Source: a virus (Duplodnaviria > Caudoviricetes). From it: a stretch of 34,209 nt of DNA. Under the pieces are notes generated by a model, which worked only from the letters and a program-made list of their open reading frames with translations, did no database searches and was not told the DNA's origin. Below, in pieces: positions 8,601 to 34,209 of this stretch; positions within the stretch are counted from its first letter, which is position 1; each line of letters opens with the position of its first letter. The stretch covers positions 1-34,209 of the IMG/VR virus record IMGVR_UViG_3300025769_000422. One strand, 5' to 3'. The translations under genes were made by a program, and so were the position numbers.

Positions 8601-8607
8601 TGAACCG

Positions 8608-17087: not shown

Positions 17088-17110
17088 CCATTAGTAGGCG
17101 GTTTGCAACA

Positions 17111-18283: not shown

Positions 18284-18286
18284 TAC

Positions 18287-21200
18287 ATGCTGACCACGGA
18301 TGAGAAAAGCGAGTTGCACAACGAGTTCACCGCCCGAGCACAGGGCCGCAATCGTCCGCCGGAATTCATCCAGCGGGTGATCGACGAGAAGGAAGCCGGG
18401 ATCATGGACCCGGCGACCGAGTCACCCGGTGTTGCACCCAACTTCGGCCAGTACGCGCTGCCGCATCTGTTGACGTACCAGAGCCTGCACGGCACGTACA
18501 GTCGCGTCTACAAAGCCAGTGACGAGGCGATCAAGCACAGCATCGAGAACTCGCGATTCATGCGAAACGATGTTGGCATCATGGAGTGCGTAGAGGCACG
18601 GCAGCGGGCAACGGCGCTTCTGGACTGGCACATCGAGCCGGAGGACGACAACAGCCAGAGCCAGAAAGACCTATGCACCGAGCTGACGAAGATCATGAGC
18701 CGGATACGTCGCTTCACCGAGTATCGCAACAACCTTCTGCATGCCATCTGGTACGGCAAGTATGCGGTGCAGAACCGATACGGCTGGCAAAACATCGGCG
18801 GGGCGATGCGAGTGATGCCGACCCCGCTACGTGAGAACTACGGCTGGCAGCCGATCAACGGTGACAAGCTGGTATTTCGCTATGACGATGGCCAGCTGGA
18901 CCCGACTCGACCAATCCATCAGCTGGGGGTGCGTGTCGGACATCGGAAGCAGATCGGCACCAAAATCAACAAGCGGTGGGAAGTCGAGCCGACTGGGCAC
19001 GGGCTGGCTTACTTCCTTAGTGAGTACGAGCGACGTTCGTTGGTTGTTCACAAGCATCTAATCGAGGACGGAGCGTACGAGGATAACTGGGGCGGCGAGC
19101 AGATCCACGGCGTGGGTGTTCGGTCGCGCATCTACTGGGACTGGTTCCAGAAGCAGGAGACTTTATCGTTCCTGATGGAGTACCTCGAGCGATCCGCAGG
19201 CGGAATCGAGATTTGGAGCTATCCGGCCGGCGACAAGGGCGCACTGGAAGCGGCGAAAAGTGCAGCCACCGACCGAATCAGCAACCAGCGGAACGTCGTG
19301 TTCTTCCCGAAACCCATGGGCGACGAGGGCGCCATGTATGACGTGCAGGTGATCGAGCCAGGTATGTCGGGAATCGAGAGCCTGAAGGACATCGTGACCA
19401 ACTATTTCGGCCACCGAGCGAAGCGGTACATTCTCGGCCAGACGTTGAGCACAGAGGCGGATGCCACCGGGCTAGGCTCAGGCGTGGCGGAGCTCCACTA
19501 CAACTCCTTCTTGATGATCGTGAAATACGACGCGGTCAACCTCGAGGAGACGATTACGCGCGACCTGCTCCGACCGTTGCAGGAATGGAACTTTCCGAAG
19601 TCCAAAGGCATTGCTCTGCAATTCAAGATCGAGACCGAGTCTCCGGACGTGGAGAAGCGACTCGAGGCATATCAGGCGGCGTGGAGCATGGGCGCGAGTC
19701 TGAGCGAATCAGACGTCATGGACATGATCGGTGCGAGCGTGCCAACCGACAACGAAAGCGTGCTGAAGAATCCACAACTTGACCCGGAAGCACAGCAGGG
19801 AATGGACCCGATGGGCGGCATGGGCGGCGGAATGCCGGGCATGGCCCCCATGGGTGGAATCCCGCAGGACGGCGACGGTGACGGGATCGCAGGCGATGGA
19901 ACGTCACAAGCTACGGCTGTTGGCTTTAGTGGTGTCGACCAAATGAAAACGGACGCGATCGACAGCATGTATAACGACCCGGAAACGGCCGCGGGCGGCG
20001 ACGTGACGTACGTGAACGAAGGCGGCGAGTACCAGACTCGCGAGATGCCGGAGTTTGACACGGGTGACCGCAAGCCCGAGGGCAAGGTGGAGCGGTTCGA
20101 GCGGGATGGCGACGTCGACCTGTATCGACAGCAGATTGACAGCGCCGGGACGTCACTCAACCAGGTGCCTGCATTGTTCAAGCGAGTGCAGAAGGCCGGC
20201 GGATTCAAGCCGAACTCAATCAACCTGGACTATGGCGGCGGCAAGTACGACAAGGGAACCGAGTTCCTGAAACAGCTGGGCGTGAACAACCTGGTGCTAG
20301 ATCCCTTCAACCGATCAGGCGACCACAACCAGGCCGTTGTCGCAGCGATCAAGAAAGCCGGCGGCGCTCCGACTGCGACCATGGCGAACGTGCTGAACGT
20401 CATCGCCGAGCAGGAGGAACAGATCAAGGCACTCCAGAACGCCAAGTCGCTGCTGGCACCGGGCGGAATGCTGTATATCGACGTCCACGAGGGCGACGGC
20501 AGCGGCCAGGGCAAAGCGACGAGCCGCGGATTTCAGCAGAATGCGAAGCTCGACGCCTACCTGCCGATGGTGCAGAAGGTGTTCGGCCAGGCAGCGAAAG
20601 AGGGCGGTGTGATCGTGGCGACGACTCAGGCCCAGGGGAACGCTGCCTACAGCCGGATGGCCTACAACCTGGGCGAAGTCGAGCGATACGAAAAGCAACT
20701 GACGTTCGATTTCGGCAGCAAGGACGACGGCGAGTGGAAGACGATCAACGGCAGCCACGTGTACGTCGAGGGCGGCGAGATTACCAAAGGTCCGCCGGAT
20801 CTGTTGGGCAGGGGTGGCGACGGCCGGAAGGAGGACAGGCCGAAGCCGTTGGGAAAAAACCGACCCGGTGGGCGAAGCGAATTCAAGCCCGCCGGGGATT
20901 CACCGTCCGATGAGCTGCCAGCTGAGTTCGGCGCAATTGATTTGCCGATCCTCAACAACGCTCCGACAGGCGGCGATCCTCCAGAGGCCAGCACCGGGAA
21001 TGCGGTCAAGCTGCATCCGATCAAGTCCTACGACAAGGTTCTGGTCCAGTTCTCAGGCGGCAAGGACTCACTGGCGGCGGTGCTCGATCTGATCGACCGC
21101 GGAGTCGACCCGAAGAAAATCGAGCTCTGGCACCAGCGGATTGACGGCGACGGTGAGCGGTTCATGGACTGGCCAGTGACCGAAGACTACGTGCGAGCGA

Positions 21201-24200
21201 TCGCCGACCATCTGGGCGTCAAGCTCCGGATGCAGTGGCGTGAGGGCGGATTCAAGCGGGAGCTGGAGCGCCACAAGGAACGCACGCAAGGTGTGTGGTT
21301 CGAGGATGAGAACGGCAAGCGGAAGTTTCTGCCGACCACGAAAGGCGGCGAGACGACCCGCGAGAAGTGGCCCGCCAAGTCATGCGATCTGGGGAAACGG
21401 TGGTGCAGCGCTACGCTGAAGATCGACGTAGCGGCGCGGAGCATAACGAACGATCCGAGCCTGAAGGGCGACAAGCTGCTGTTCGTCAGCGGCGAGCGGC
21501 GCGAGGAAGGCGGCCGGCGGTCCAAGTACCTCGAGAGCGAGAAGCACCGGACCCACAACAAAAGCCGGACGAACCATCATTACAGACCCGTCCTGGATTG
21601 GTCCGAACAGCAAGTGTGGGACAAGATCAAAGAGCACGGGATCAACCCGCACCCAGCGTATCGCCTGGGCTACAACCGGCTGAGCTGTCAGCACTGCATC
21701 TTCGCCGACCCGGACCAGGTCGCGAGTAACCAGGAGCTAGACCCGAACGCGGTAGAGAAGCTGGCGGAGATGGAGGACAAGCTAGGCCACACCATCAGCG
21801 CCACCCCGAAGGGCGAAGGGGTCAGCATCCGCGACTGGGCGAAACAGGGCGTCAGTTTTGTCACTGACTCCCCGGACGAGCTCAAGAAGCTCGCGATGAG
21901 CACCGAGTTTACCGAGCCGATCCACGTCGGCGATGACTGGGAAATGCCGAAGGGGGCGATGAAAAAGGGCCAGGGAGCGCCCGCGAACTACGCGCGGATG
22001 GGCTACACCTGGGCGGACGTCGACCGTTATTGGCGATTTGACCGGATGGTCCGCGACTTGTACAGGGCGCAGTTCAACGAGGGCGATCATCCGCGGGACC
22101 AGGACGGCCAGTTCACGAGCGGAGCGGAGACCGCGCGTGCAATGGACGTCCCTGCGACTGAGCTCAATCGCGACGTTCACAGCCTGTTAAAAGGCACGGA
22201 GGGGTGGGTTCGTCCGGTTGAGCTCTTTCGCCAGTACAAAGGCAAGGCGAAGCTGTTGGACTTCATCAAGGAAGTGAAGACGGCCGCGTCCGAGGGCGAG
22301 GTAGAAACCAAGGGCAAGGGCGACAAGTTCCAGGTGCGCCGGATCGATACCGAGAGCAGCCTGATCAGTGACACGAATCGCCGGCTGGCAGGTCACAAGG
22401 TCGAGTACAACCCGCGGCAGATGACGTTGTTTCGGAAGCCAGGACGACCAGAGCCCTATCGACGGGTGAAGGATCGAAAAGGTCAGGGCACGTTCGACTG
22501 GAACGAGGAGGATCACCCCAGGGGGCAACCCGGCAACGCTGGCCAATTCGCCAGCAAGGAGGGCGGCGGGAGCGCGGAAGCCCCAGAAGCTCCAGAGGAG
22601 CGGAAGCCACAGGCAGAGGACAACTGGAGCGGTCCAGTTATTCAGTCGCCAGCGTTCAAGCAGTGGTTCGGCGACTGGGAGAACGACCCGCAGAACTCCT
22701 CAAAGGTAGTCGACGAGAACGGCGAGCCTGAGCAGCAGCACAGCATGGTGGTGGACGAGAACGGACAGCCGAAGAAAGCCTATCACGGCACGTCACACGG
22801 CGGATGGGACACATTCGAGCCACGTTTCGGACAGGCATCCGCAGGAGGGATTTCGGATCACCTGCTGTACGGGCCGGGGTTCTACTTCACAGAGGACAGG
22901 GGCATTGCCGAGGAATACACCCAGATTGCGAGAGAGCCTGAATACTCGCTCGCGATGGATGAGGACGCGGCCAACGCAAAGCTGCGCGATCGGGTGGAGG
23001 CAGTCGCAGAAGCATCCGACGATGAAATGCTGATCGAGGAGGCGGGCGACGTCATGCGGGACATTGATTCCGGGCGTTATGGCGTCCACAGGATGGTTGG
23101 CAAGAGCAAGAGCCAGCACGACTATTTTGCATCGACGTTCGGCATCGATGTCAGCGATCTGTTTGAGGAAAAGGACGATTCGGAGGTCAAGGAACTCTAT
23201 CTCAACATTCGGAAGCCGTTCGACGCTGACAATGACCGGATCCCGGCAAGCCCGGCAATGAGAGAAACGCTCGAGCGTTACATTCGCGAGTCAGAGGAAC
23301 AAGGGCATATGTCTGAGGCTAACGAATGGCGGGAGAAACTGAGGGAAGGGTACACGTATCAGGAAGCACTGGGTTTCAAGCCGACGAAAGAAGCCTTGAA
23401 CGAATACCTGAAGGAACTGGGCTACGACGGCATCACACACATCGGCGGGCGGCACATGGGGAGCCGTGACCATCAGGTCTGGATCGCGTTTCAGCCGAAC
23501 CAGATCAAGAGCACCGACAATCGCGGCACGTTCGATCCGAATGACAACCGGATGAACTACCGCAAGGTGAAGGATCGAAGAGGACAGCAGGCGTTCGACT
23601 GGGACGAGTCAGCACACCCCAGGGATGAAGACGGCAAGTTCGCCACGAGTGACAAGCCGAGTGACACGAAAAGCGCGAGTGACACGGAGATCGGCGGCAT
23701 TAAAAGCAGCGGAAGCGAACTTGGTGATGAGGCAACGATGGCCATCAGCGAGCTTTCGGAGGAAGCGGTATTGTCTGCCGTTCAGACCGACGGGTTCAAC
23801 GAAGCGGCGGTGCGTTCTGTGCAAGCACACACCAAGACGGTTGTTGGCCGGATGAATGCCGCGTGCAGGATGAAGATTGCCAACAACCTCGAGAGGATCA
23901 AATACGCGCCCGACCTGAACGAGTTGACCCGCCAATACAACTTTTTCAACCTTGCTAACCGTCGACTGGGATCGATCGGCGGATTCTATATGTTCGATGA
24001 GCAATGGCTGTTCCTGAACGGTGCGTTTGATGAGTACACCGAGTTCGGGAAGGGCGAAGCGAAAGACACAGCCGAAGGTATCCAGGCTCACGAGTTCGCG
24101 CATGCGATTGACGGCCCGAAGTCCGTCTACAGCAATATGGTCGAGTGGAAGACGGCATATCTTAGCGAAATCTGGGCGGCGAAGTCGCAGGATGCTCCGT

Positions 24201-24364
24201 TGACGCGATACGCCACAACAGACGCATCTGAAGGATTCGCCGAGTTCGGCCGATTGCTGTTTAGCGAAACGGAATACTTACAGGCTGCGGGGCGAGAAAC
24301 GATACGGGCGACCTTTCCGAAGTGCTACAAGTTCTGGCTAGACATGGGGCTTATCGATGACTGA
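18287..24364 (+). CDS. Portal (DUF935/Mu gp29-like) fused to SAM methyltransferase, PAPS-reductase-like, ADP-ribosyltransferase-like (ART-PolyVal type) and zincin metallopeptidase domains
   Basis: Portal ~18287-19790 (ILGQTLSTE..GLGSGVAELH); MTase ~20130-20620 (LDYGGG, DPFN, NVLNV); PAPS reductase ~21030-21960 (FSGGKDS, RWCS..LK, GERREE, RLSCQHC); ART ~22640-23555 (YHGT, GFYF, GYDG, QIKS); peptidase ~23740-24360 (HEFAH...YA...EGFAE). Confidence 0.88.
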   Translation: MLTTDEKSELHNEFTARAQGRNRPPEFIQRVIDEKEAGIMDPATESPGVAPNFGQYALPHLLTYQSLHGTYSRVYKASDEAIKHSIENSRFMRNDVGIMECVEARQRATALLDWHIEPEDDNSQSQKDLCTELTKIMSRIRRFTEYRNNLLHAIWYGKYAVQNRYGWQNIGGAMRVMPTPLRENYGWQPINGDKLVFRYDDGQLDPTRPIHQLGVRVGHRKQIGTKINKRWEVEPTGHGLAYFLSEYERRSLVVHKHLIEDGAYEDNWGGEQIHGVGVRSRIYWDWFQKQETLSFLMEYLERSAGGIEIWSYPAGDKGALEAAKSAATDRISNQRNVVFFPKPMGDEGAMYDVQVIEPGMSGIESLKDIVTNYFGHRAKRYILGQTLSTEADATGLGSGVAELHYNSFLMIVKYDAVNLEETITRDLLRPLQEWNFPKSKGIALQFKIETESPDVEKRLEAYQAAWSMGASLSESDVMDMIGASVPTDNESVLKNPQLDPEAQQGMDPMGGMGGGMPGMAPMGGIPQDGDGDGIAGDGTSQATAVGFSGVDQMKTDAIDSMYNDPETAAGGDVTYVNEGGEYQTREMPEFDTGDRKPEGKVERFERDGDVDLYRQQIDSAGTSLNQVPALFKRVQKAGGFKPNSINLDYGGGKYDKGTEFLKQLGVNNLVLDPFNRSGDHNQAVVAAIKKAGGAPTATMANVLNVIAEQEEQIKALQNAKSLLAPGGMLYIDVHEGDGSGQGKATSRGFQQNAKLDAYLPMVQKVFGQAAKEGGVIVATTQAQGNAAYSRMAYNLGEVERYEKQLTFDFGSKDDGEWKTINGSHVYVEGGEITKGPPDLLGRGGDGRKEDRPKPLGKNRPGGRSEFKPAGDSPSDELPAEFGAIDLPILNNAPTGGDPPEASTGNAVKLHPIKSYDKVLVQFSGGKDSLAAVLDLIDRGVDPKKIELWHQRIDGDGERFMDWPVTEDYVRAIADHLGVKLRMQWREGGFKRELERHKERTQGVWFEDENGKRKFLPTTKGGETTREKWPAKSCDLGKRWCSATLKIDVAARSITNDPSLKGDKLLFVSGERREEGGRRSKYLESEKHRTHNKSRTNHHYRPVLDWSEQQVWDKIKEHGINPHPAYRLGYNRLSCQHCIFADPDQVASNQELDPNAVEKLAEMEDKLGHTISATPKGEGVSIRDWAKQGVSFVTDSPDELKKLAMSTEFTEPIHVGDDWEMPKGAMKKGQGAPANYARMGYTWADVDRYWRFDRMVRDLYRAQFNEGDHPRDQDGQFTSGAETARAMDVPATELNRDVHSLLKGTEGWVRPVELFRQYKGKAKLLDFIKEVKTAASEGEVETKGKGDKFQVRRIDTESSLISDTNRRLAGHKVEYNPRQMTLFRKPGRPEPYRRVKDRKGQGTFDWNEEDHPRGQPGNAGQFASKEGGGSAEAPEAPEERKPQAEDNWSGPVIQSPAFKQWFGDWENDPQNSSKVVDENGEPEQQHSMVVDENGQPKKAYHGTSHGGWDTFEPRFGQASAGGISDHLLYGPGFYFTEDRGIAEEYTQIAREPEYSLAMDEDAANAKLRDRVEAVAEASDDEMLIEEAGDVMRDIDSGRYGVHRMVGKSKSQHDYFASTFGIDVSDLFEEKDDSEVKELYLNIRKPFDADNDRIPASPAMRETLERYIRESEEQGHMSEANEWREKLREGYTYQEALGFKPTKEALNEYLKELGYDGITHIGGRHMGSRDHQVWIAFQPNQIKSTDNRGTFDPNDNRMNYRKVKDRRGQQAFDWDESAHPRDEDGKFATSDKPSDTKSASDTEIGGIKSSGSELGDEATMAISELSEEAVLSAVQTDGFNEAAVRSVQAHTKTVVGRMNAACRMKIANNLERIKYAPDLNELTRQYNFFNLANRRLGSIGGFYMFDEQWLFLNGAFDEYTEFGKGEAKDTAEGIQAHEFAHAIDGPKSVYSNMVEWKTAYLSEIWAAKSQDAPLTRYATTDASEGFAEFGRLLFSETEYLQAAGRETIRATFPKCYKFWLDMGLIDD

Positions 24365-25412
24365 CAGGCAACTGATACCAGAGCTGTTCGGCGAGAGTAT
24401 CAATACGGACGGCAGCCACGCGGATGTACTGTTAGGTCAGGGCGAGGAAGAGGAACCGCACGCATCAAATACGCAGGCCGGCGGTCTGTACGGCGACGTT
24501 CTGCTCACACCAGACGAGCGTGAGAAGTACGCGCGGCAGATATCACTGTTCAACGAGGAAGACCATCCGCGCGACGATTCCGGGAGATTTACCAGCGGCG
24601 GAGGCCGATCGAAGTCAGCGAAGCCGGTCAAGCCGTTCCACCCATTGAAGGGCGAAGGCGGGAAGCTGCACCCGAAGCGGAAACCGAACAAGGAAGCGTC
24701 TGAATACCACGGAGTCGAAAAGCTGAACTCTCCCGGGAATCTGCCGGCGGTGTTCCTGACTGGGGTGAGCAACAAGAAGACACGCGAGGCGGCGAAGGAT
24801 AGGCCGGGGCTGGGCGTCCTGATCACCCCGAATACTGGGCAGTACGTGAACCACGTGAACGATTACAGCGCGTTCGCAGTGGACAACGGTTGTTACTCCG
24901 AGCACACCGGCAAATGCGAATTTAAGCCGGCGGAGTTCCGGAAGCTGCTGAAGGATCTGAAGCCGGAAGCACACAAGGCGATGTTTGTGACTGCTCCGGA
25001 TGTTGTGGGCGACTGGGAAGCGACGAGGAAACGGAGCGAGCCGTGGCTGGGTGAGATTCGCGAGGCGGGTTTTCCGGTAGCCTGGGTGGCTCAGAACGGC
25101 ATCGAGAACAACCAAGGCGAAATTCCCTGGGACGATTTCGACGTCCTGTTCATCGGCGGAAGCACCGAATGGAAGCGGGGTTTCGATTCCAAGGGCGGCA
25201 CGAACTCCGAGTTCGTCAAGATGCTCAAGGAAGCACACAAGCGAAAGAAACCGGTACACTTTGGTCGCATCAACAGCTGGAAATCGCTCGACACGGTGGG
25301 CTACGGCCTGGGAGCCTCGAGCGTGGACGGGACGTATCTGGCATTCGGCCCAGAGAAGAACCTACCGAAGCTGCTCGATTGGGTGGATAGCGAGACCGCA
25401 ACGCGATACTAG
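24357..25412 (+). CDS. tRNA-guanine transglycosylase (TGT/DpdA)-like TIM-barrel protein with N-terminal HPR tag
   Basis: 'AVDNGCY', 'PDVVGDWEAT', 'VAQNG', 'FIGGSTEWK', 'HFGRIN' and 'SVDGT' follow the TGT-superfamily motif order. Confidence 0.6.
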   Translation: MTDRQLIPELFGESINTDGSHADVLLGQGEEEEPHASNTQAGGLYGDVLLTPDEREKYARQISLFNEEDHPRDDSGRFTSGGGRSKSAKPVKPFHPLKGEGGKLHPKRKPNKEASEYHGVEKLNSPGNLPAVFLTGVSNKKTREAAKDRPGLGVLITPNTGQYVNHVNDYSAFAVDNGCYSEHTGKCEFKPAEFRKLLKDLKPEAHKAMFVTAPDVVGDWEATRKRSEPWLGEIREAGFPVAWVAQNGIENNQGEIPWDDFDVLFIGGSTEWKRGFDSKGGTNSEFVKMLKEAHKRKKPVHFGRINSWKSLDTVGYGLGASSVDGTYLAFGPEKNLPKLLDWVDSETATRY

Positions 25413-25420
25413 GGCGAAGA

Positions 25421-28400
25421 ATGAACATTCAGCAGATCAACGAAGCGGTTGAACGTGCGGTCTACGAAAAGGTCCACGGGTGGAGTGAGGACGACCATCC
25501 GCGTGCCGATGACGGCAAGTTCACCAGCGGCAGCGGTTCGGTCGAGGGCGGCCAGGCAGAGCCCAAGAATCCGAAGTTCGTCGACCCGGGGCAGTTTGCC
25601 ACGTTCGAGGAATACACCGACTTCCTGTCCGACAAGCTGGGGCGCTCGATATTCGGTGTGTCTGGCGGCAACCGGGCGAAGCTGATGGACAACTGGCACA
25701 AGGCCCAGGCTGAGAAACGCGGCGACGATTACGAGTTGCCGGACTGGATCGCAGACATGTCGGAGAATCATTCCGCCGGCGACGTCAGCGACTGGGCAAA
25801 GGACATGATAGCGAACCGCGGATTCGACGAGACCGAAGTGCGCGGAGCACTCGAGGAATCGAGCGACCTGAAAGTTGATCCAACCAAGCACGACGACCTA
25901 TACAGCCTGGGCCATTACATCGAATCGCTCGACGATGAGGACGAGCGGCCGGTTCAGCGGGAGCTATTCGGCCGTTACCGATCGCTCGAGCACGCCACCC
26001 AGAGCGCCAACCCTGCGCTGCGACTGATGGCAGCGAAGCAGATGCGGTACAGCCTGGTCCATTCAGGCGGACACTGGCGGGATCTGGACCGACTCGATGG
26101 AATCATTGAGGAAGCGGTCGACCACGGGCGTAGAATGGCAACACTGGCCAACAGCGAAGCCGGCCAGGCTGTGCTTGACCACTACCTGGACGAAGCTGTC
26201 GCAGTGATGCACCAGCTGGAGCCAGAGCGGGAGATGTACCGCAAGGTTAAGAGCCGACCAGGCCAGAAAAGCCTGTTCGATGAGGACACTGTCGAACGCC
26301 ATCCAGCCGGCAGCCCCGAGGGCGGCCGATTCGCTCCCAAGGGCAGCGGCAAGAAGGGGAAGAAAGATGCGAAGTCGAGCAGCAAAAAGCGAGTGGGGAA
26401 GAAGACTCGAAAACCACGTACGCGAAAACTTCCCGACGGAGTGGGCGAAGATGAGCGAGGATCAGCGCAACGACTTTTTGACTGGGGTAGTGACTCAGGC
26501 GGAGAACGACGTGGTGCTGATGATTCGGCAGGGGATGCTGCCAGCAGAGGCGAGGGCACAGGCACGGGCGGAGATGTTCCCGAGACCGGAAGAAAGCGAC
26601 GACGAAACACTCTGAACGTCATGAGCTCCACCGATTGGAGCTACAAAGACAACTCCTTCGTTGAGGGCGGCAAGAAGGCCAAGTTTCAGCACAATATCGA
26701 AGCGATCAAGGTTCTGAACCAGATCGAAGCCGAGGGACGCGACCGCGCGACCGTCGATGAGCAGGAAGTGCTGTCTAAGTTCAACGGCTGGGGCCAGTAC
26801 CCGCAGGTATTCGACCCATACCCGCGGCCAGAGTGGAAGGCCGAAGCGGAGCAACTCGAGAGCCTTCTGGGTGAAGCACAATTCAAGCAGGAAGCGAGAG
26901 AGTCCCGCGACAACCGCAAGAGCGCCGGCCGCGCTACGCTCAACAGCCACTTCACCGACCCAGCCGTGGTCGATGCGCACTGGAAAGCTGCCCAGCGGCT
27001 GGGTTTCAAAGGCGGTCGATTCCTCGAGCCGTCCATCGGATCGGGCCACTATGTCGGCCTGATGCCGGAAGAGCTCCGCAAGAATACGGCTGTGACTGGC
27101 GTAGAGCTGGACACGACAACGGCCCGCGTTGCTTCGATGCTGTACCCGTCGGTCAACATTCAGAATCAAGGTTTCGAGAAGTTCAGCGCGCCGGACGGGT
27201 TCTACGATCTGGCTGCTTCCAACGTCCCGTTCGGTGACTACCGACTGAGCGAGCGACGTTACAACCGTCTGCGCCCGTACATCCACGACCACTTCTTTCT
27301 GAAGACGATCGACAAGGTGAAGCCGGGCGGTCTGGTGATGCACGTGACCAGCACGGGCACGATGGACAAGAAGAACGACAAGATCCGCAAGAACATGGCG
27401 AAAAATGCGGATCTAGTCGGCGCCTTTCGGATGCCATCAGGGGCGCACGGGCAATCGGCCGGGACCGCTGTTGTGACCGACATGCTGATCTTCAGGAAGC
27501 GGGACGAACACGGGGCAGCACCGGAGCACAACCCGAAGGAGGTTCTGGACCAGCTGAAACCGGGTTTCACGGGAGTCCTGACCGACAGTCTGGGGCGGGT
27601 GTACCACTTCGTTGACGGTAAGCGGGTTCCGGCTGACTACTGGACCGAGATAGGATCAGTTCCCGACCCAGAGGGCGGCGAAGACATTCCAGTCAACAAA
27701 TACTTCCAGCACAACCCGGACCAGATCCTTGGCCAGATCGGATGGACAGGAACGCTCTACGGCGGTCACGAGATGGGCGTGCAGTCGACTGGTGACCTGA
27801 CCGAGATGCTAGACGCTGCGATCAACCGGTTGCCAGAGAACATCATGAGCGACCGCCAGCCGGAAAATCTGGACGCATACGAACCAGAGGCGCAGCCAGG
27901 TGCAGAAGATGAGCGGGACGGGAACCTCGTAGTCGATGGCGATGAGGTGTTTCAGAAGGTGGGCAACATTCGCGTCAAGGTGGATCTGAACGCAAAGCAG
28001 GCGGCGATCATCAAAGACGCCGCGGACGTCCGTTCTGGCGTGCGTGACCTGATGCGAGCCGACTTGGCTGGCGAAGACGCGGACGAGATGCGGCAAAAGC
28101 TGAGCGTCTCGTACGACATGTTTGTGGACACTCACGGCCCGTTGCACAGTCCGGCCAACTTGCGAGCGATGGCTCAAGATCCAGACCTGCCTGTAATGCT
28201 GGCGCTCGAGGATTGGGACGCGAAGACAAAGACGGCCACCAAGGCGGAGATTTTCGAGAAGCCGACGGTTCGGCCGCACGTGGAGCCGACCACCGCGGAC
28301 AATGTGATTGATGCGTACGGGATCAGTCTCGCACAGCGGGGCAACATCGACCCTGACTACATGGCACAACTGACAGGGCTACGTCTGGAGGATGTCGAGG

Positions 28401-31400
28401 ACGAGATGCGCAAGTCCGGACTGGCGTTTGAAGATCCTTCGGACGGCTGGACCGAACGCGGGTCGTACTTGTCTGGAGACGTTAAGGACAAGCTGGCGAT
28501 TGCTCGAGCAGCGGCAGAAGCCGACGAGCGATACAAGGTGAACGTGGAAGCACTCGAAGCGGTTCAGCCGAAGGACATCGCATACGACGACATCGGCGTG
28601 AGAATGGGGAGCCCGTGGATTCCACCGAGCGACGTTGAGCAGTGGCTCAGCGACACAATTGGCGGACGTCCGGACGTGTTCAAGATCGAGTACAGTCCAG
28701 AGCTGGGCCAGTGGTCTGTCGACATGGCTCGAGGTGAGGCCAACGCATGGTTGCCGCATGACCACAAGCTGGAGGTGGGTGGCTTCAAGTGGAAGCGAGT
28801 AGTTGACGCGGCGCTGAACTCGAAGACGCTGACGGTGTGGGGTGAGGACAGCAAAGGGAACCGATACGTTGACGTCGACGCGACCGATGCGGCCCGCGAA
28901 AAGGTGGCGGAGGTAAAAGAGCAGTTTGCCGAATGGGTCTGGGAAGACTCCGACCGCCGCGAACGACTCGCGCGAGCGTACAACGACGAGTACAACAACA
29001 CGGTCCCGGCCAACTATGACGGCAGCTATCTCGACTTCCCAGGGATGACTCCAGCGTGGAATCTTCGCGAACCGCAGGCCAACTTCGTCGCACAGGTGAT
29101 CAGCCGGGGTAAAGGGTTTTTGGCTCACGAGGTGGGAATCGGCAAGACGGCGGCGATGGTCGCGAGTGCGATGGAGCTGCGCCGGCTGAGGCTGGCAAAC
29201 AAGCCGGCAATCGTGGTCCCGAAAGCCACACTCGATCAGATGGAGCTCGACGCACGGGAGCTCTACCCGGGTGCGAAGATCCTCAGCACGAGCGGCAAGT
29301 TCGGTGCGACGGAACGTAAAGAGTGGATCAGCAAGATGGCGACCGGCGACTGGGACATGGTCATTATGAGCCACGAGCAGATGAAGTATCTGCCGATGGA
29401 GCGTGATACCGAAGCCAGGTTCTTGCAACAGGAGCTCGACGACCTCGACAGTGCGATGGAGTTCCGCAGGGCGCAGGACGGCAAGGGGATGCGTTCCGAC
29501 ACGCGGCAGGTCAAGGCCATGGAAAAGGCCCGAATGAAACTCGAGGCCCGAATCAAGGACGTCACAGAGGGCAAGCGGGACGACGCCTTGACGTTCGAGC
29601 AGAGCGGCATTGACCAGCTGTTCGTCGATGAAGCGCACGCATTCAAAAACCTGCAAGTCAACACAAGTCTGAAGGGGACCAAGGGCATCCCGACCGCGGC
29701 CAGTCAGCGGGCGCTTGACATGTATATGAAGACGCAGTGGATGCTGGACAACCACGACAACCGCGGAGTGGTGTTTGCGTCTGGTACACCGATCAGCAAT
29801 ACAATGGCTGAGGTCTACAACATCCAGCGGTACCTGCAACCGGACGAGCTCGAGAAGCGTGGCTTGAAACACTTCGACAGCTGGGCGAAGGCATTCGGCG
29901 ACAGCGAGACCACGACCGAGCCGAATCTAGCGGGCGAGTACAAAGACGTTACGCGGTTCACCAAGTTCCAGAACGTACCAGAGCTGATGCAGATGCTACA
30001 GCAGGATCTGGACGTGCGGACGGTCGACGCCTTCAACGAATACAAGCGCGGCGGTGACCCCGACGTAGCCGACGCGATCAAGCGACCGAAGCGGATCGAC
30101 TCGGTCTACGTCCAGCCGGCAAACGACACGACGCAGGCGGTGATGGACGAGATCGCCCTGCGGGCTCGCAACATTCCGAAGCGGCCGGGCAAGGGTGACG
30201 ACAACATGGTCAGCCTCACGACGCTCGCGCGGCAGGCTGCTGTTGATCCACGTCTGTACGACCCGAATGCCGAGGACCGTCCAGATTCCAAAGTCAACAC
30301 GATGGTGGCGAACGTGCTGGCCACATACCACAACCCGGAGAAAGCCGGCAAGACACAGCTGATCTTCTCCGACATCGGGGTAAACCCGTCCAATTCAACC
30401 GGGTTCCACCTGTACGGAGACATCATCGACAAGCTGGTGGCTGGTGGCATTCCGCGCGAGGAGATCGCCGACTATAGCAAGTTGACCGACCTGCAAAAAA
30501 AGACGGTCAGCGCGGAGCTGAAGTCTGGCAAGCGCCGCATCGGCATCGGTTCGTCCAAGAAGCTGGGCACAGGAACCAACGTGCAGACGCATCTGGCGGA
30601 GATGCACAACTTAGACGTTCCGTACGTTCCGACCGAGAACACGCAGCGAGACGGCCGCGGCTACCGTCAGGGCAATCTGAACGACGAGGTGAAGATCTGG
30701 CGGTACGTGTCGGAAGGGTCCGCGGATGAAATCAGCTGGGGCATCGTGGGCCGGAAGCAGGGGTTCATCAACCAGACAGTCACTGACAAAGGTTCGGATT
30801 TACAGCGGGAAGTAACTGAGGAAGACGCCGAGTCGTTCACACCGCAGCAGTTGCAAGCGGCCGCGGCTGGAGACACTCGGATCTTGGATCAGGTGACCTA
30901 TAGCCGAAACCTCAAGAAGTTGGAGCGATCAAAGAAACGTCACACGCGAGAGCAGAGGGAGCTGGTTGCTGGTGTCGCAAAAGCACGAGAGCAGGCGGAG
31001 GTACTCAAATCGGAAGCCACCCGGATGGCTGACGACCATGCGGCTGGCGAAGCTCGAGCGGAGCAAAAGTTGCGGATTGAGGGTGCGGCGACTGATGCGA
31101 AAGCGGCCGACCAGCAGAAGCAGATGGACGCGCTACGCGACAAGGCAGATGAGATCTGGGCATCGATTCCCACGTATCGCCGAACGATTCCGCGGTACGC
31201 TGAGTCGGCGCGGATAAGGGTGGGCGAAGTCCGCGGTATGCCTCTGTACCGATTTGCAGGCAACTTCTACCTCGAGGGCGCGAGCGGTCAGCATTACACC
31301 ACGGGTGAGACGACGCGGTCCGTTGACTACGTGGCCCGCAACCTTGGGAAGCGTGCGGACGACAAACGCCAGCAGGCGAAGATGCACGAGGAATCCGCAG

Positions 31401-33706
31401 CTTCGATGCAGTCGAGAGTTGGGGAGCCATTCAAGAAGCAAGCAGAGCTGGACGAGACGCAGAGGAAGCTGGACGCTGTGACCGAATCGCTCAAGACTGC
31501 GCCGCAGTCAACGCAGAAAGCGGAGGAGCGTTTCAAAAACGACTACCGCCGCGCCGCTCACGCTGCCGTGGCGAAGTATCTCAGAGCCGGCCAGGTTCAG
31601 CGGTATGAGTGGATTACGATTGGATCGGACAAAGGGGCACCAGAAGGGGAAAAGGGCGGCACACCTGTATTTGTGGGCCGTGGGGGGCAGATTGAAAAGG
31701 GGCCCGACAATCTCGAGGGGCAGAACATCAGTCAGGTCGACCAGAACAAGGAGGAAGGCGAGCACACCGAGAAGCAGCGCCGTCAGGATCTGAAGACGAT
31801 CGGCGACGTTCGGAAGACATTCCCGCGCGGGACGATGGTTGAGAGCCTTGACGGCGGACTCAAAGGGCAGGTGACCGGGATCAGTTTCGGCACAGGGTCC
31901 GGAACGCTCACAGTCACTGACGAAGACGGCCAGAAGCACAAGGTTTCACCGTCAGAGATGATGCGACAGGACGAGCCGAATCCCCTGGACATGAAAGAGG
32001 CGGACCAGCTGCCGGCATCCACCCAGGAAGGACTGACGAAGACGCGGGACGATGCCATTGAAGCGGCCGATAAGGCCAGGCAGAAGCTCCACGACGTCTA
32101 CAACGATCCGAACAGCACGCCAGCAGCCAAGCGGAAAGCCAGCGCCGAGCTTGAGAAGGCGGAGCAGCTGGTAGGTCAGGCTCACGGGGCTCTCGACAAC
32201 TTCAAACATCGCGCGAAGGGTGTCACAGAGCCACCGTTTACGAATGCGAAAGGCGAAGTCATTCCAGACCCGCCGGACTGGTTCAAACGCGGACGCGCCA
32301 ACGCACGGTGGGCGCCGGACCGAACCAAGAAGCAGGCGTACCTGTTCGATAAGTGGGAAGACCCGACGCCAGAGAACGCGCCACCGCCGCCGATTGATCA
32401 GGTGCCAGGCGCAGAGAAGCCGATTGAGCGACTCCAGAAGGGCCAATTCAGCGAATACACTGGGCTGACGCTGATGGACATCGACGACATCAAAGCGGAC
32501 CCAGGGCGTTTTCAGTACAAGGTGTCCGGTATCGGCAGCGGGGGCGTATCGCAGAAGCTGAAGGACGCGGAAGTTTTTAACCCCATGCTGATGGGCTCGT
32601 TTCTGGTGTGGCACGATCCGGAGGATGGAGAGACGTACGTCGTGAACGGCCACCATCGTCACGAGCTTGCACAGAGAGCGGACCGAGCCGAAGGTTTCAA
32701 CGGTCTGGTCCCGGCGTACTACGTGGACGCTCCAGACGCCACAACGGCCCGTGCTATGGGAGCTCTCGCGAACATCGCCGACGAGAACGGAACAGCAACG
32801 GACGCTGCCAAGTTCATCCGCGACACTGGAAGCACACCGGAAGACATGCGGCAGCTGGGCGTGAGTCTCAAGGGCCGCATTGCACAGCCGGCACAGGCGC
32901 TCAGCCAGGTTTCGGACACGATGTTCCACCAGCTAACCAGCGGGTTGATGAAGGAATCACGAGCGCTGGCCATTGCGAACAACCTACAGGACCACGAAAA
33001 GCAGAACCAACTGGTAAGACGCATCGACAAGGCCGAGAATGAGGGCAAAACGCTGTCGGATGCTGTCGTAGCTGAGATGGCTCGCCAGTATGATGCAGCT
33101 GGCGAGAAGCGAAGCGACGGCGGAGGTGGCGGTCTGTTCGGTGACGACGATTTCAAAGAATCACTGATCGTCGAGCGGTCTGAGTTGATCAGTGGCGTCC
33201 GACAGGCTTTGAACGGCATGCGGACGGCGCTTGCTCGAGCAAGTACCAAGAAAGCCGCGGAGCGTCTCGAGTCTGTCGGTGGTAACATTGTCGACACGGA
33301 AGCCAACAAGGCCCGCAAGGCGGAACTGGACCGTCTGGTGGAGGATTTCAACAGCACGGTAAACTACCGCGGTACAGGACTGTCGGAGCTATTCAATGAC
33401 TACGCCCAGCGACTCGCAGACAACCCAAAAGCCGGAAACCAACTCCGAAAAGAGCTCATCGAACGAATCGCCGGAGGCGGTCAACTGGGAGGCGGTCAAT
33501 CAGGGGCTGTCCAACCTTCAGGGGCAGGGGCTGGTGGGCAGAACTCCGGACGGCAAGCGCAACGACCTATTAGTGTCGCAAGCCCTGCACAGCAGCAACA
33601 GTTCGCAAGGGACGTCAGCCGGCTGATGCGGTACGGCATGGGCTACACAGCGGCCGCAAATGTGGCCAGAGGCTACCAACTGAATCGCTTCGGGGAGCGG
33701 AATTGA
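25421..33706 (+). CDS. DarB-like polyvalent protein: N6-adenine DNA methyltransferase + SNF2/SF2 helicase + SH3/KOW-like + ParB-like domains
   Basis: MTase LEPSIGSG and NVPFG; helicase HEVGIGKT, DEAH, SGTPISN, GTGTNVQ and QRDGRGYRQGN; ParB-like 'DPGRFQYK...YVVNGHHR'. Confidence 0.9.
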   Translation: MNIQQINEAVERAVYEKVHGWSEDDHPRADDGKFTSGSGSVEGGQAEPKNPKFVDPGQFATFEEYTDFLSDKLGRSIFGVSGGNRAKLMDNWHKAQAEKRGDDYELPDWIADMSENHSAGDVSDWAKDMIANRGFDETEVRGALEESSDLKVDPTKHDDLYSLGHYIESLDDEDERPVQRELFGRYRSLEHATQSANPALRLMAAKQMRYSLVHSGGHWRDLDRLDGIIEEAVDHGRRMATLANSEAGQAVLDHYLDEAVAVMHQLEPEREMYRKVKSRPGQKSLFDEDTVERHPAGSPEGGRFAPKGSGKKGKKDAKSSSKKRVGKKTRKPRTRKLPDGVGEDERGSAQRLFDWGSDSGGERRGADDSAGDAASRGEGTGTGGDVPETGRKRRRNTLNVMSSTDWSYKDNSFVEGGKKAKFQHNIEAIKVLNQIEAEGRDRATVDEQEVLSKFNGWGQYPQVFDPYPRPEWKAEAEQLESLLGEAQFKQEARESRDNRKSAGRATLNSHFTDPAVVDAHWKAAQRLGFKGGRFLEPSIGSGHYVGLMPEELRKNTAVTGVELDTTTARVASMLYPSVNIQNQGFEKFSAPDGFYDLAASNVPFGDYRLSERRYNRLRPYIHDHFFLKTIDKVKPGGLVMHVTSTGTMDKKNDKIRKNMAKNADLVGAFRMPSGAHGQSAGTAVVTDMLIFRKRDEHGAAPEHNPKEVLDQLKPGFTGVLTDSLGRVYHFVDGKRVPADYWTEIGSVPDPEGGEDIPVNKYFQHNPDQILGQIGWTGTLYGGHEMGVQSTGDLTEMLDAAINRLPENIMSDRQPENLDAYEPEAQPGAEDERDGNLVVDGDEVFQKVGNIRVKVDLNAKQAAIIKDAADVRSGVRDLMRADLAGEDADEMRQKLSVSYDMFVDTHGPLHSPANLRAMAQDPDLPVMLALEDWDAKTKTATKAEIFEKPTVRPHVEPTTADNVIDAYGISLAQRGNIDPDYMAQLTGLRLEDVEDEMRKSGLAFEDPSDGWTERGSYLSGDVKDKLAIARAAAEADERYKVNVEALEAVQPKDIAYDDIGVRMGSPWIPPSDVEQWLSDTIGGRPDVFKIEYSPELGQWSVDMARGEANAWLPHDHKLEVGGFKWKRVVDAALNSKTLTVWGEDSKGNRYVDVDATDAAREKVAEVKEQFAEWVWEDSDRRERLARAYNDEYNNTVPANYDGSYLDFPGMTPAWNLREPQANFVAQVISRGKGFLAHEVGIGKTAAMVASAMELRRLRLANKPAIVVPKATLDQMELDARELYPGAKILSTSGKFGATERKEWISKMATGDWDMVIMSHEQMKYLPMERDTEARFLQQELDDLDSAMEFRRAQDGKGMRSDTRQVKAMEKARMKLEARIKDVTEGKRDDALTFEQSGIDQLFVDEAHAFKNLQVNTSLKGTKGIPTAASQRALDMYMKTQWMLDNHDNRGVVFASGTPISNTMAEVYNIQRYLQPDELEKRGLKHFDSWAKAFGDSETTTEPNLAGEYKDVTRFTKFQNVPELMQMLQQDLDVRTVDAFNEYKRGGDPDVADAIKRPKRIDSVYVQPANDTTQAVMDEIALRARNIPKRPGKGDDNMVSLTTLARQAAVDPRLYDPNAEDRPDSKVNTMVANVLATYHNPEKAGKTQLIFSDIGVNPSNSTGFHLYGDIIDKLVAGGIPREEIADYSKLTDLQKKTVSAELKSGKRRIGIGSSKKLGTGTNVQTHLAEMHNLDVPYVPTENTQRDGRGYRQGNLNDEVKIWRYVSEGSADEISWGIVGRKQGFINQTVTDKGSDLQREVTEEDAESFTPQQLQAAAAGDTRILDQVTYSRNLKKLERSKKRHTREQRELVAGVAKAREQAEVLKSEATRMADDHAAGEARAEQKLRIEGAATDAKAADQQKQMDALRDKADEIWASIPTYRRTIPRYAESARIRVGEVRGMPLYRFAGNFYLEGASGQHYTTGETTRSVDYVARNLGKRADDKRQQAKMHEESAASMQSRVGEPFKKQAELDETQRKLDAVTESLKTAPQSTQKAEERFKNDYRRAAHAAVAKYLRAGQVQRYEWITIGSDKGAPEGEKGGTPVFVGRGGQIEKGPDNLEGQNISQVDQNKEEGEHTEKQRRQDLKTIGDVRKTFPRGTMVESLDGGLKGQVTGISFGTGSGTLTVTDEDGQKHKVSPSEMMRQDEPNPLDMKEADQLPASTQEGLTKTRDDAIEAADKARQKLHDVYNDPNSTPAAKRKASAELEKAEQLVGQAHGALDNFKHRAKGVTEPPFTNAKGEVIPDPPDWFKRGRANARWAPDRTKKQAYLFDKWEDPTPENAPPPPIDQVPGAEKPIERLQKGQFSEYTGLTLMDIDDIKADPGRFQYKVSGIGSGGVSQKLKDAEVFNPMLMGSFLVWHDPEDGETYVVNGHHRHELAQRADRAEGFNGLVPAYYVDAPDATTARAMGALANIADENGTATDAAKFIRDTGSTPEDMRQLGVSLKGRIAQPAQALSQVSDTMFHQLTSGLMKESRALAIANNLQDHEKQNQLVRRIDKAENEGKTLSDAVVAEMARQYDAAGEKRSDGGGGGLFGDDDFKESLIVERSELISGVRQALNGMRTALARASTKKAAERLESVGGNIVDTEANKARKAELDRLVEDFNSTVNYRGTGLSELFNDYAQRLADNPKAGNQLRKELIERIAGGGQLGGGQSGAVQPSGAGAGGQNSGRQAQRPISVASPAQQQQFARDVSRLMRYGMGYTAAANVARGYQLNRFGERN
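26367..26615 (+). CDS. Candidate nested (overprinted) TnpV-like helical protein, 82 aa
   Basis: Purine-rich AGGGGAAG precedes ATG26367. The alternative frame reads WGRRLENHVRENFPTEWAKMS...FL..V..QAE...IRQGM..AEARAQARAEMF, while the main frame there is low-complexity. Confidence 0.55.
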   Translation: MRSRAAKSEWGRRLENHVRENFPTEWAKMSEDQRNDFLTGVVTQAENDVVLMIRQGMLPAEARAQARAEMFPRPEESDDETL

Positions 33707-33707
33707 C

Positions 33708-34209
33708 ATGGTATCCAAGCGGTTCAAGTACCTGCGACCACGGCCGAGTGTTGAAACTGGCGGTCCAAAGCCAGAATTCCAGACAGGGTGGCCGTGCCCA
33801 ACCAACATGGCTCCGTTTACTGTGACAATCACATGGTCGGAGCCTGTCAATGGTTTTGATTTGAGCGATCTTCAGCTCACCAACTGCACTGCTGCAAATT
33901 TCACTGAAGTGACGCCGAACTTGGTCTACACTGTAGATCTGACGCCAGCCGCAGAAGGCCAGTTTTGTTTTGCGATTCCGAAGGACTCGGTGACTGCGGT
34001 GGCAGACCCATTGCAGGGGAACGGTTACAAACAATTCTGTTGCGTGTACGACATCACCGATCCAACGGTGGTGGTCTCGGGTCCTGCTGCGGGCATCCAA
34101 TCTGTTCCTCACGACGTTACGATCACATTCGACGAAGCTGTGACCGGACTGGTCATCGGTGACCTCACAGTGACCGGTGCTTCCGCAGATGCTTTGACAG
34201 GCTCGGGGG
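33708..34209 (+). CDS. Ig-like (bacterial Big-type) repeat protein, 3'-truncated; missing from the ORF track
   Basis: ATG33708 follows GGAG and has no stop before the window end. It reads 'FTVTITWSEPVNGFDLSDLQLTN...YTVDLTP' and a second repeat 'VTITFDEAVTGLVIGDLTVTG'. Confidence 0.85.
   Translation, partial: MVSKRFKYLRPRPSVETGGPKPEFQTGWPCPTNMAPFTVTITWSEPVNGFDLSDLQLTNCTAANFTEVTPNLVYTVDLTPAAEGQFCFAIPKDSVTAVADPLQGNGYKQFCCVYDITDPTVVVSGPAAGIQSVPHDVTITFDEAVTGLVIGDLTVTGASADALTGSG

What the first reader, a model, noticed from the sequence alone, without database searches (positions are those of the whole stretch)
20081..33706. Headline: a repeated linker grammar (Tyr sites + HPR..G[QKR]F tags) punctuates domain boundaries of three cargo ORFs - candidate capsid-loading and proteolytic-release system
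Seen, six tags: LYRAQFNEGDHPRDQDGQFTSG (His 22088), PYRRVKDRKGQGTFDWNEEDHPRGQPGNAGQFASK (22514), NYRKVKDRRGQQAFDWDESAHPRDEDGKFATS (23615), KYARQISLFNEEDHPRDDSGRFTSG (24564), VYEKVHGWSEDDHPRADDGKFTSG (25496), MYRKVKSRPGQKSLFDEDTVERHPAGSPEGGRFAPK (26300). Each follows a Tyr-[R/A/E] site and precedes a new domain. A second tag occurs twice, also after RYE: WKTINGSHVYVEGGEITKGP (~20733) and WITIG...GTPVFVGRGGQIEKGP (~31609). Tyr sites also occur alone (DLYR ~20120, GRYRS, MRYS, and the terminal TRY-stop at 25412). Known: T4 internal proteins use a short capsid-targeting sequence and are trimmed by the prohead protease. Inference: a Tyr-specific prohead protease cuts these polyproteins into separate enzymes, each starting with a short tag for retention in the head, DNA binding or ejection.
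Basis: partly seen in the sequence, partly recalled or inferred. Interest (0 to 1): 0.92.

Follow-up and report, generated by a model that had tools for sequence, protein, structure and literature searches.

The report
Cut-and-tag code for phage head cargo
An uncultured freshwater phage strings enzymes into giant head-region proteins whose modules start with a short tag found in thousands of phage proteins; the residue just before the tag matches each phage's own head protease (tyrosine here), so the chains are likely cut inside the capsid into separately tagged enzymes that are probably carried into the host, though no cut has been measured.

Summary
All six HPR..G.F tags and both W.TI tags are at the stated places in a Mu-type portal fused to cargo (2025 aa), a 351-aa ORF and a DarB-like giant (2761 aa); shuffles give 0.005 tags. 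The window ends before its protease gene. Related phages carry an unannotated assemblin/gp21-fold protease-scaffold full of [RK]Y[SAR] sites (234 vs 24 shuffled), and a profile from those scaffolds picks the window's linker tyrosines. The first tag occurs in 4,415 protein clusters. The residue before it follows the resident protease's self-site (Y, D, N, K, R; 49 loci, 0 of 20,000 shuffles). A label-free test agrees: 76 of 110 multi-tag proteins share one residue, against 15 shuffled. Where no protease was found, the tag follows the start Met. Tag plus domain is the unit of exchange. Cleavage, packaging and the tag's partner are untested. Polyvalent cargo and protease trimming are known; the tag was not found in print.

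The parts
14870..15595 (+). Terminase small subunit-like ORF (context)
   Evidence: HTH-type Pfam hits below cut-off; position before terL
15573..17087 (+). Terminase large subunit (context)
   Evidence: Pfam Terminase_3C E 1e-7
17111..18283 (+). KTSC-containing ORF with C-terminal basic G-x-P-x-R-G repeats, conserved between terL and portal in relatives (context)
18287..24364 (+). Portal-fused polyvalent protein, 2025 aa
18365..19777 (+). Mu-type portal domain
   Evidence: Pfam Portal_Mu E 8e-37; 46-61% identity to ten viral loci
20123..20125 (+). Tyr site after the portal tail (weak score 1.1)
20126..20647 (+). SAM methyltransferase module, no tag of its own
   Evidence: Pfam Methyltransf_23 E 9e-6; also untagged in L282
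20648..20689 (+). Tyr sites Y788 and Y801 (Y801 scores 6.5)
20735..20794 (+). Tag type 2 (W-x-T-I...G-x-V...I-x-K-G-P)
21014..21982 (+). PAPS-reductase-family module (DndC-like hit below cut-off); the whole tag-2 cassette is absent in close relative P0203
21989..22063 (+). Spacer flanked by Tyr sites Y1235 and Y1259
22073..22120 (+). Tag type 1, copy 1 (His 22088)
22139..22402 (+). Small unassigned module
   Evidence: no Pfam hit at E 0.1; homologue in P0203
22457..22558 (+). Tyr site Y1391, basic leader and tag type 1, copy 2 (His 22514)
22637..23551 (+). ART-PolyVal ADP-ribosyltransferase module; homologues start at a tag in other phages
   Evidence: Pfam E 1e-16
23558..23647 (+). Tyr site Y1758, basic leader and tag type 1, copy 3 (His 23615)
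23774..24361 (+). Zincin-like metallopeptidase module (HEFAH)
   Evidence: sequence; weak Pfam peptidase hits
24357..25412 (+). 351-aa ORF: leader, Tyr site Y58 (best score 7.1), tag 1 copy 4 (24549-24596), DpdA/TGT-like domain (lead only), terminal Tyr
   Evidence: same module inside a 3551-aa polyprotein, starting at a tag
25421..33706 (+). DarB-like polyvalent protein, 2761 aa
   Evidence: PHROG 10089 E 0; Pfam SNF2
25463..25528 (+). Tyr site Y15 and tag 1, copy 5 (His 25496)
25538..25960 (+). Unassigned module; a marine relative has other DNA from 25530 to 26371
25976..26239 (+). Spacer with Tyr sites Y186, Y210 and Y273
26276..26338 (+). Tag 1, copy 6, long-loop variant (His 26300)
26633..31528 (+). 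Adenine MTase-SNF2 helicase module
31544..31606 (+). Tyr sites Y2042, Y2053 and Y2062
31610..31705 (+). Tag type 2, copy 2
32453..33475 (+). Module read as ParB-like (name recalled from its sequence, not from a call), no tag of its own here; tagged in other phages
   Evidence: PHROG 21 region E 3e-62
33632..33706 (+). C-terminal Tyr-rich tail
33708..34208 (+). Ig-like (Big_12) ORF, cut by the contig end; protease and capsid genes are expected beyond it

Best explanation
The three ORFs are phage polyvalent proteins built from cassettes of Tyr motif + tag + enzyme domain, which are likely built into the prohead and likely cut after Tyr by the phage's own assemblin-fold head protease, so that each enzyme would be freed with a conserved tag at its new N-terminus that probably keeps it in the head and lets it be delivered with the DNA. 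Steps: (1) shown: cassette anatomy, tag N-terminal to its cargo, Tyr motif shared with relatives' protease-scaffolds, co-variation of the pre-tag residue with protease type across lineages; (2) inferred: the portal fusion and helical leaders bring the chains into the prohead; (3) inferred: cleavage Y|[S/A/R], by analogy with T4 gp21 and SPN3US gp245, removes spacers and frees about 8 modules of 15-200 kDa; (4) inferred, least certain: the 16-20-residue tag (a predicted mini-hairpin) binds a conserved site inside the head, which retains fragments while scaffold peptides leave and loads stand-alone Met-tag proteins in phages without a protease; (5) inferred: the cargo (MTase-SNF2, ART, DpdA-like, PAPS-reductase-like, peptidase) is injected to protect incoming DNA and alter the host. 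The tags also serve as crossover points for swapping cassettes.
For: Scaffolds of 61 related proteases hold 234 [RK]Y[SAR] sites against 23.6 shuffled (max 37); 21 DUF2213 and 10 S78 scaffolds hold 2 each. The centre of the flanking pattern is Y in 110 of 168 (5.7 expected). Protease fold: pLDDT 92; best matches VZV assemblin Z 8.0 and T4 gp21 Z 7.7, with invariant His and Ser. The scaffold-derived profile scores 11 of 33 linker Tyr against 3 of 119 in-domain Tyr at >=2 (Fisher p 3e-6). Co-variation: 49 loci, 84 tags, match 0.87 against 0.38 shuffled, 0 of 20,000. Within DUF2213, all 4 rows with an N self-site have N before the tag, against 1 of 17 tags in rows with a D self-site. Label-free: 76 of 110 multi-tag proteins share one pre-tag residue, 15.5 shuffled, max 25. 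The same ART module carries K, F or Y upstream in different phages. The tag lies in the first third of 50 of 56 small single-tag ORFs and the last third of 1; it follows Met within 4 residues in 23 ORFs, and 18 of 22 such loci had no hit to my protease or portal profiles. Carriers are portal (25), protease (7) and other ORFs (106). A complete relative places this protease right after its cargo genes.
Against: No cleavage, packaging or injection data exist. The window's own protease is not in the contig. Two modules lack a tag, and one is untagged in a relative too. Two strong Tyr sites lie inside domains (30473, 23903), and one in the DnaB control scores 4.2. Several window sites are of the Y-R type, which makes up only 8% of scaffold sites, and score 0.8-2.1. 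9 of 27 tags in Tyr-type phages have no Tyr within 15 residues (F or H instead, or farther away), and three close relatives have H or N at the first post-portal site. Protease classes were assigned after I had seen the tags; six D-class rows were assigned by family default; kin loci are not independent; within-protein concordance can partly come from cassette duplication. In SPN3US about 80% of head proteins are not cut, and all cuts found were terminal (PMC10052503, passages). The tag is net acidic and no partner is known.
Confidence: 0.62

Rival explanations
1. Cleavage by the head protease is real, but the tag is only a protease-docking (P'-side) element or an N-terminal stabiliser, not an address.
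For: The tag sits a few residues after the site in all protease classes.
Against: The same tag serves proteases of different families and specificities. The scaffolds' own many sites mostly lack it. It follows the start Met where no protease was found.
Confidence: 0.1
2. The tag acts after injection: it binds DNA or a conserved host component and brings each enzyme to its target. It plays no part in loading or retention.
For: A partner conserved across host phyla and across unrelated portal and capsid families is easier to imagine as DNA or a host machine than as a capsid surface. Linkers also carry a clamp-like Q-x-x-[LM]-F motif.
Against: The tag is acidic and tolerates E or Q at the 'basic' position. 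Carriers are concentrated in head modules. Stand-alone Met-tag genes have no other shared feature that could load them.
Confidence: 0.14
3. The tags are DNA-level recombination anchors for cassette shuffling, and the chains work uncut or are cut by their own zincin peptidase, as Iyer et al. 2017 proposed for polyvalent proteins.
For: A marine relative swaps 840 nt for 1,326 nt from just after tag 5 to just after tag 6 (one contig, depth 5). Homologous modules begin at tags. The portal chain ends in an HEXXH peptidase.
Against: Tag copies are only 64-78% alike in DNA with varied synonymous codons. Residues, not codons, are conserved across phyla. Recombination cannot explain why the pre-tag residue tracks the head protease. 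Many tagged chains showed no peptidase hit in the Pfam scans.
Confidence: 0.1
4. Chance motifs in low-complexity linkers.
For: About 58% of DNA-pattern matches in prokaryotic genomes (72 of 125) are not tags.
Against: 0.0045 expected in shuffles. An aromatic residue not specified in the pattern is present in 115 of 119 viral matches. 4,415 clusters match the profile.
Confidence: 0.01

Closest known systems
Phage polyvalent proteins (Iyer et al. 2017, PMC5512222; passages read via term search)
   Same: Giant multi-enzyme proteins beside portal and terminase genes, with ART-PolyVal, MTase-SNF2, zincin peptidase and portal fusions; proposed to be packaged, injected and processed.
   Different: The paper proposes processing by embedded metallopeptidases. 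The main text has no hit for 'linker', 'HPR' or 'clamp'. Site-plus-tag cassettes keyed to the head protease were not in the passages seen; its supplements could not be read.
T4 internal proteins IPI-III and Alt with the capsid-targeting sequence and gp21 (PMC9026906; passages)
   Same: A prohead protease of the same fold cuts scaffold and cargo after a short motif; cargo is ejected into the host.
   Different: T4 cuts after L/I-X-E and removes a 10-19-residue N-terminal targeting peptide from single proteins. Here the predicted P1 is Tyr, sites are internal in polyproteins, and the conserved tag lies after the cut, is kept, and is shared by unrelated phage lineages.
SPN3US gp245 / phiKZ gp175 maturation (PMC10052503; passages)
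   Same: One short motif (A-X-E, P1' Ser preferred) is used on portal, ejection proteins and the protease's own C-terminus.
   Different: Only terminal propeptides are removed; no shared retained tag and no release of several enzymes from one chain.
P1 Dar system: DarB with its N-terminal 30-residue packaging signal (PMC9024508; passages)
   Same: A DarB-like MTase-SNF2 is packaged by a short N-terminal signal that can carry a reporter.
   Different: The paper found no consensus among Dar N-termini. Here the module sits inside a longer chain behind a widely shared tag.
MuF polymorphic toxins (Jamet et al. 2017, PMC5576092; passages)
   Same: Variable enzymes are fused to a head protein.
   Different: No MuF domain in the window ORFs; several cargoes per chain; the main text has no hit for 'motif' or 'cleav'.

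Membership tests
Phage polyvalent proteins | Several unrelated enzymatic domains in one large polypeptide | tested here: met
Phage polyvalent proteins | Hallmark domains (ART-PolyVal, adenine MTase-SNF2, zincin peptidase) | tested here: met
   Pfam PF18760 above cut-off, PF00176, PHROG 10089, HEFAH motif
Phage polyvalent proteins | Encoded in a portal-terminase head module | tested here: met
   terL and Portal_Mu adjacent or fused
Phage polyvalent proteins | Packaged in the virion and injected | not testable with these tools
   needs virions
T4 capsid-targeting system | Short N-terminal targeting peptide placed before the cut and removed | tested here: not met
   the conserved tag lies after the predicted site and is internal in 6 of 8 window copies; unconserved helical leaders before the first site might fill this role
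T4 capsid-targeting system | Cleavage after L/I-X-E | tested here: not met
   scaffold motif centres on Tyr, 110 of 168
T4 capsid-targeting system | Protease of the gp21/assemblin fold | tested here: met
   in relatives only: Z 8.0 (rmsd 3.4, 107 aligned) to VZV protease and Z 7.7 (rmsd 3.8, 112 aligned) to T4 gp21; Foldseek top hits gp21 at E 0.12
Assemblin/HK97-type prohead proteases | Invariant His and Ser, gene between portal and major capsid protein, self-site right after the catalytic domain | tested here: met
   alignment A3 H55 and S113; gene order; Y or F after the catalytic loop in 60 of 75. Catalytic roles inferred.
Assemblin/HK97-type prohead proteases | Member of a named Pfam or PHROG protease family | tested here: inconclusive
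   no hit for 3 members; none of the 120 listed of 546 homologues has a precomputed Pfam domain
Assemblin/HK97-type prohead proteases | The window's phage encodes this protease | not testable with these tools
   contig ends at 34209; inferred from relatives with 56-61% identical portals
P1 Dar system | DarB-like MTase-helicase | tested here: met
   PHROG 10089
P1 Dar system | DarA/Hdf/Ulx partners and the DarB-type N-terminal signal | not tested
   no such Pfam hit among the 17 window ORFs scanned; signal not compared
MuF polymorphic toxins | N-terminal MuF domain | tested here: not met
   no MuF hit in the three ORFs; tags do occur on MuF proteins elsewhere

The most novel reading that the evidence does not exclude
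The 16-20-residue tag is a portable, near-universal virion address of tailed phages. It works at a free N-terminus regardless of host phylum, portal, capsid or protease family, is enough to load and eject any attached protein, and is paired with a cut site that is re-written to suit each phage's own protease (Y, F, D, N, K, R, E, L). It would then mark thousands of uncharacterised domains as injected effectors and give a sequence read-out of head-protease specificity.
Probability: 0.35. Interest if true: 0.93.

Novelty: new variant of a known kind. Interest (0 to 1): 0.8.

Why it matters
How polyvalent phage proteins are processed, and how cargo is held in and ejected from capsids outside T4 and P1, is open. 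This grammar gives exact, testable cut sites and a minimal tag. It predicts the specificity of unnamed head-protease families (a Tyr-cutting family of at least 546 proteins; Asp or Asn for DUF2213) and flags the domain after each tag as a candidate injected effector in 4,415 protein clusters. If the tag is sufficient, it is a general tool for delivering proteins into bacteria by phage.

Tried and rejected
Searching the window's genome for the protease: the assembly is the window. Tag profiles against PDB sequences gave only chance-level hits, and against NCBIfam none; an Atlas search of a tag region gave no usable hit. Complex prediction of the tag with a relative's major capsid protein was never run because the queue was full, so the tag's partner is open. 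Viral-contig searches with the MTase-SNF2 and the 351-aa domain found no relatives. No RNA holder was listed for the stretch. tblastn of a tag against plasmids gave one unrelated hit; a 31-residue query is insensitive, so this is not counted as evidence. Promoter and terminator scans were at or below chance. A phylum-wide search found the protease in 2 of 401 genomes; it adds little. Foldseek alone gave no match at E <= 0.001 for the protease. Literature: ten searches found no description of the tag or of a Tyr-specific head protease; subscription journals are mostly missing, and the Iyer 2017 supplements could not be read. The phi24B preprint (10.64898/2026.04.10.717836, passages) shows a packaged 2811-aa polyvalent protein but no such tag in the passages seen. 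Rejected: chance; pure DNA repeats; a strict T4-type removed signal. Rows left out of the co-variation test: 5 XkdF rows, 1 Mu-I row, loci without a recognised protease, duplicates of the L012 clade, and tags with fewer than 15 residues of leader.
Full report
WHAT THE WINDOW IS. The window is a whole 34,209-nt virus record. Replication genes (YqaJ, DnaB) are followed by terminase subunits, a KTSC ORF, a 2025-aa protein that starts with a Mu-type portal, a 351-aa ORF, a 2761-aa DarB-like protein and an Ig-like ORF cut by the contig end. Freshwater runs hold it, and one contig is identical over 15500-33849 but may be its source. The host is probably a planctomycete (inference): homologues of the relatives' protease are named from Planctomycetaceae and Pirellulales bins, one such locus lies in a Planctomycetaceae bin, and a Phycisphaerae bin contig is 56% identical to the portal-MTase junction.

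OBSERVATION. 2,000 shuffles give a mean of 0.0045 type-1 tags. Each has a Tyr 9-21 residues before the His. Domains between tags are a methyltransferase, a PAPS-reductase-family domain, a small unknown domain, ART-PolyVal and an HEXXH peptidase in the portal chain; a DpdA-like domain (Atlas structure row TM 0.66, a lead only) in the small ORF; and an unknown domain, MTase-SNF2 and a module I read as ParB-like in the giant. The MTase and the ParB-like module have no tag of their own.

THE PROTEASE. Ten viral loci with 46-61% identical portals were found. Their order is portal, cargo, a 430-630-aa ORF, a cement-like protein, major capsid protein. A complete 62.6-kb relative with the same portal-ART-peptidase layout has that ORF right after four cargo genes. 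Its N-terminal domain has invariant His and Ser, folds with pLDDT 92 and matches herpes assemblin (Z 8.0) and T4 gp21 (Z 7.7) best among 48,161 chains (middling Z, but the three top rows are this fold). It has no Pfam or PHROG name, and 546 homologues were found. Its C-terminal scaffold is studded with Tyr motifs: 234 [RK]Y[SAR] in 61 scaffolds against 23.6 shuffled, but only 2 each in 21 DUF2213 and 10 S78 scaffolds. Tyr is the centre in 110 of 168 flanking-pattern matches, and Ser or Ala follows in 48%, as at P1' of SPN3US (PMC10052503, passages). A profile built only from these scaffolds ranks the window's linker tyrosines first: 11 of 33 linker against 3 of 119 in-domain Tyr score 2 or more (domain limits set by me). 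Exceptions: two in-domain sites, one DnaB control site, and the weak scores of several Y-R sites.

THE TAG IS GENERAL. Two DNA patterns matched about 150 and 370 viral stretches, and one matched about 350 genome stretches from many phyla. An aromatic residue at -5, not in the pattern, is present in 115 of 119, 71 of 125 and 53 of 125 distinct matches, so most genome matches are chance and the rest are true tags. A 31-position profile finds 4,415 clusters at 50% identity, with up to 20 matched stretches per protein. Core: [FW]-x-E-x-x-H-P-R-(2-10)-G-[KRQE]-F. AlphaFold orders residues 1-20 (pLDDT 82-86) as a short turn and bridge. Of 138 complete tagged ORFs, 25 are portal fusions, 7 protease fusions and 106 others; the tag lies N-terminal to its cargo (first third in 50 of 56 small single-tag ORFs, last third in 1).

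CO-VARIATION. I labelled loci by head protease (Pfam; local profiles) and by the residue at the protease's own first self-site. Within four residues before the tag: D in 27 of 28 tags of D-type phages, N in 3 of 3, K in 24 of 24, R in 2 of 2, and Y/F in 17 of 27 (25 of 27 within ten). Per-locus match was 0.87 against 0.38 shuffled, and none of 20,000 shuffles reached it. The labelling was not blind, six D rows were assigned by family default, and kin loci are not independent. Two checks reduce this worry. Inside DUF2213 the self-site column is D in 10 rows, N in 4 and unaligned in 7 of 21; N precedes the tag in all 4 N rows and in 1 of 17 tags of D rows. Without any labels, 76 of 110 proteins with three or more distinct tags share one residue before all their tags (shuffles 15.5, max 25); the residues are K, D, E, L, Y/F and a few others (duplication within a gene can add to this). 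The same ART module is preceded by K, F or Y in different phages. Tag type 2 follows the same rule in the 14 copies found: a Tyr motif in most Tyr-type phages and Asp in two DUF2213 phages. Two cultured phages looked up in the annotated collection fit the D rule; a third, Sixama, has a tag but no clear site. In 23 ORFs the tag follows Met within four residues; 18 of 22 such loci had no hit to my protease or portal profiles, and four show a minor-capsid, scaffold-like and capsid gene set without one. These are fragments, so absence is not proven.

CASSETTE EXCHANGE. A marine relative replaces 25530-26371, from just after tag 5 to just after tag 6, with 1,326 other bases (one contig). A close relative lacks the whole tag-2/PAPS cassette. 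The 351-aa ORF's module sits inside a 3551-aa chain, starting at a tag. Tag copies in the window are 64-78% alike in DNA with varied synonymous codons, so selection acts on the peptide and recombination uses it secondarily.

MECHANISM. Shown: the anatomy and the statistics above. Inferred: cutting after Tyr in the prohead would free about eight modules of 15-200 kDa and discard short spacers. Because the portal chain needs no loading signal yet carries four tags, and each tag would become a new N-terminus, the tag must act on each fragment after the cut. Because stand-alone genes use it right after Met, it probably also loads. I favour binding to a conserved site inside the head, for retention and then ejection; binding to DNA or a host factor after injection is the main rival. 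The partner is untested. My odds: head-protease cleavage at these sites about 0.8; tag as virion address about 0.7; whole model 0.62.

COMPARISON AND NOVELTY. The proteins are phage polyvalent proteins (PMC5512222, passages), and head-protease trimming of cargo is known from T4, SPN3US and P1 (PMC9026906, PMC10052503, PMC9024508; passages; PMC9503650 passages note enzyme fusions to portal, MuF and the head peptidase). It works like T4's system but is not a member of it: the site is Tyr, the cuts are internal, and the signal is kept. Ten literature searches, Pfam, NCBIfam and PDB sequence scans did not show the tag (and others listed under Tried and rejected); unseen supplements may hold it. 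Earlier unchecked notes of this scan report similar grammars in other genomes, one with a Tyr motif; I saw them after the main tests, and they are not independent support. Verdict: a real, well-supported new variant of known kinds, with a widespread undescribed tag whose function needs bench work. Interest 0.8.

Noticed in passing
window 22418, 24537, 25955, 26264, 32333: Linkers carry Q-x-x-[LM]-F, like the bacterial sliding-clamp-binding motif (consensus recalled, not from a call). 20 copies against 4.2 shuffled (max 10) in 31 Tyr-lineage cargo proteins; 20 against 11.1 in other lineages; 4 against 12.4 in structural genes. It may dock injected enzymes on the host clamp, or simply extend the tag.
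   Followed up: partly
L004:18097-19581, L082:3672-5045 and their capsid genes: Just after the protease's first Tyr sites the scaffold has a P-x-G-x-N-T-F-V motif that mimics the major capsid protein's N-terminus (40 of 75 scaffolds by a loose pattern).
   Followed up: partly
window 24747-25409 with 21014-21982: A DpdA/TGT-like domain (lead) and a PAPS-reductase/DndC-like domain are both tagged cargo, hinting at virion-delivered DNA-modifying enzymes.
   Followed up: partly
window 24357-24440; L003:15832-15900: The ORF after the peptidase-ended portal chain starts with a similar I-P-E-[LI]-F leader in both phages; possibly part of the peptidase cassette.
   Followed up: no
window 17111-18283: KTSC ORF with C-terminal basic G-x-P-x-R-G repeats, conserved between terL and portal across relatives; possible DNA-binding head protein.
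   Followed up: no
L012:5455-7137, L068:3677-5887, L086:5046-6647, L469, L470: Site-tag-cargo cassettes are also inserted between the protease domain and its scaffold.
   Followed up: partly
L012/L016, L038, L077 versus other DUF2213 loci: DUF2213 looks like a head protease with Asp- and Asn-type subfamilies, read from self-site and tags.
   Followed up: yes
L505 (G405) 6742-9233: In this complete relative, protease and scaffold are two adjacent ORFs rather than one.
   Followed up: no
P0124 (7334 aa), P0130 (5313 aa): Giant chains with 20 and 17 tag matches, mostly preceded by Phe-Ser motifs: a likely Phe-cutting lineage.
   Followed up: no
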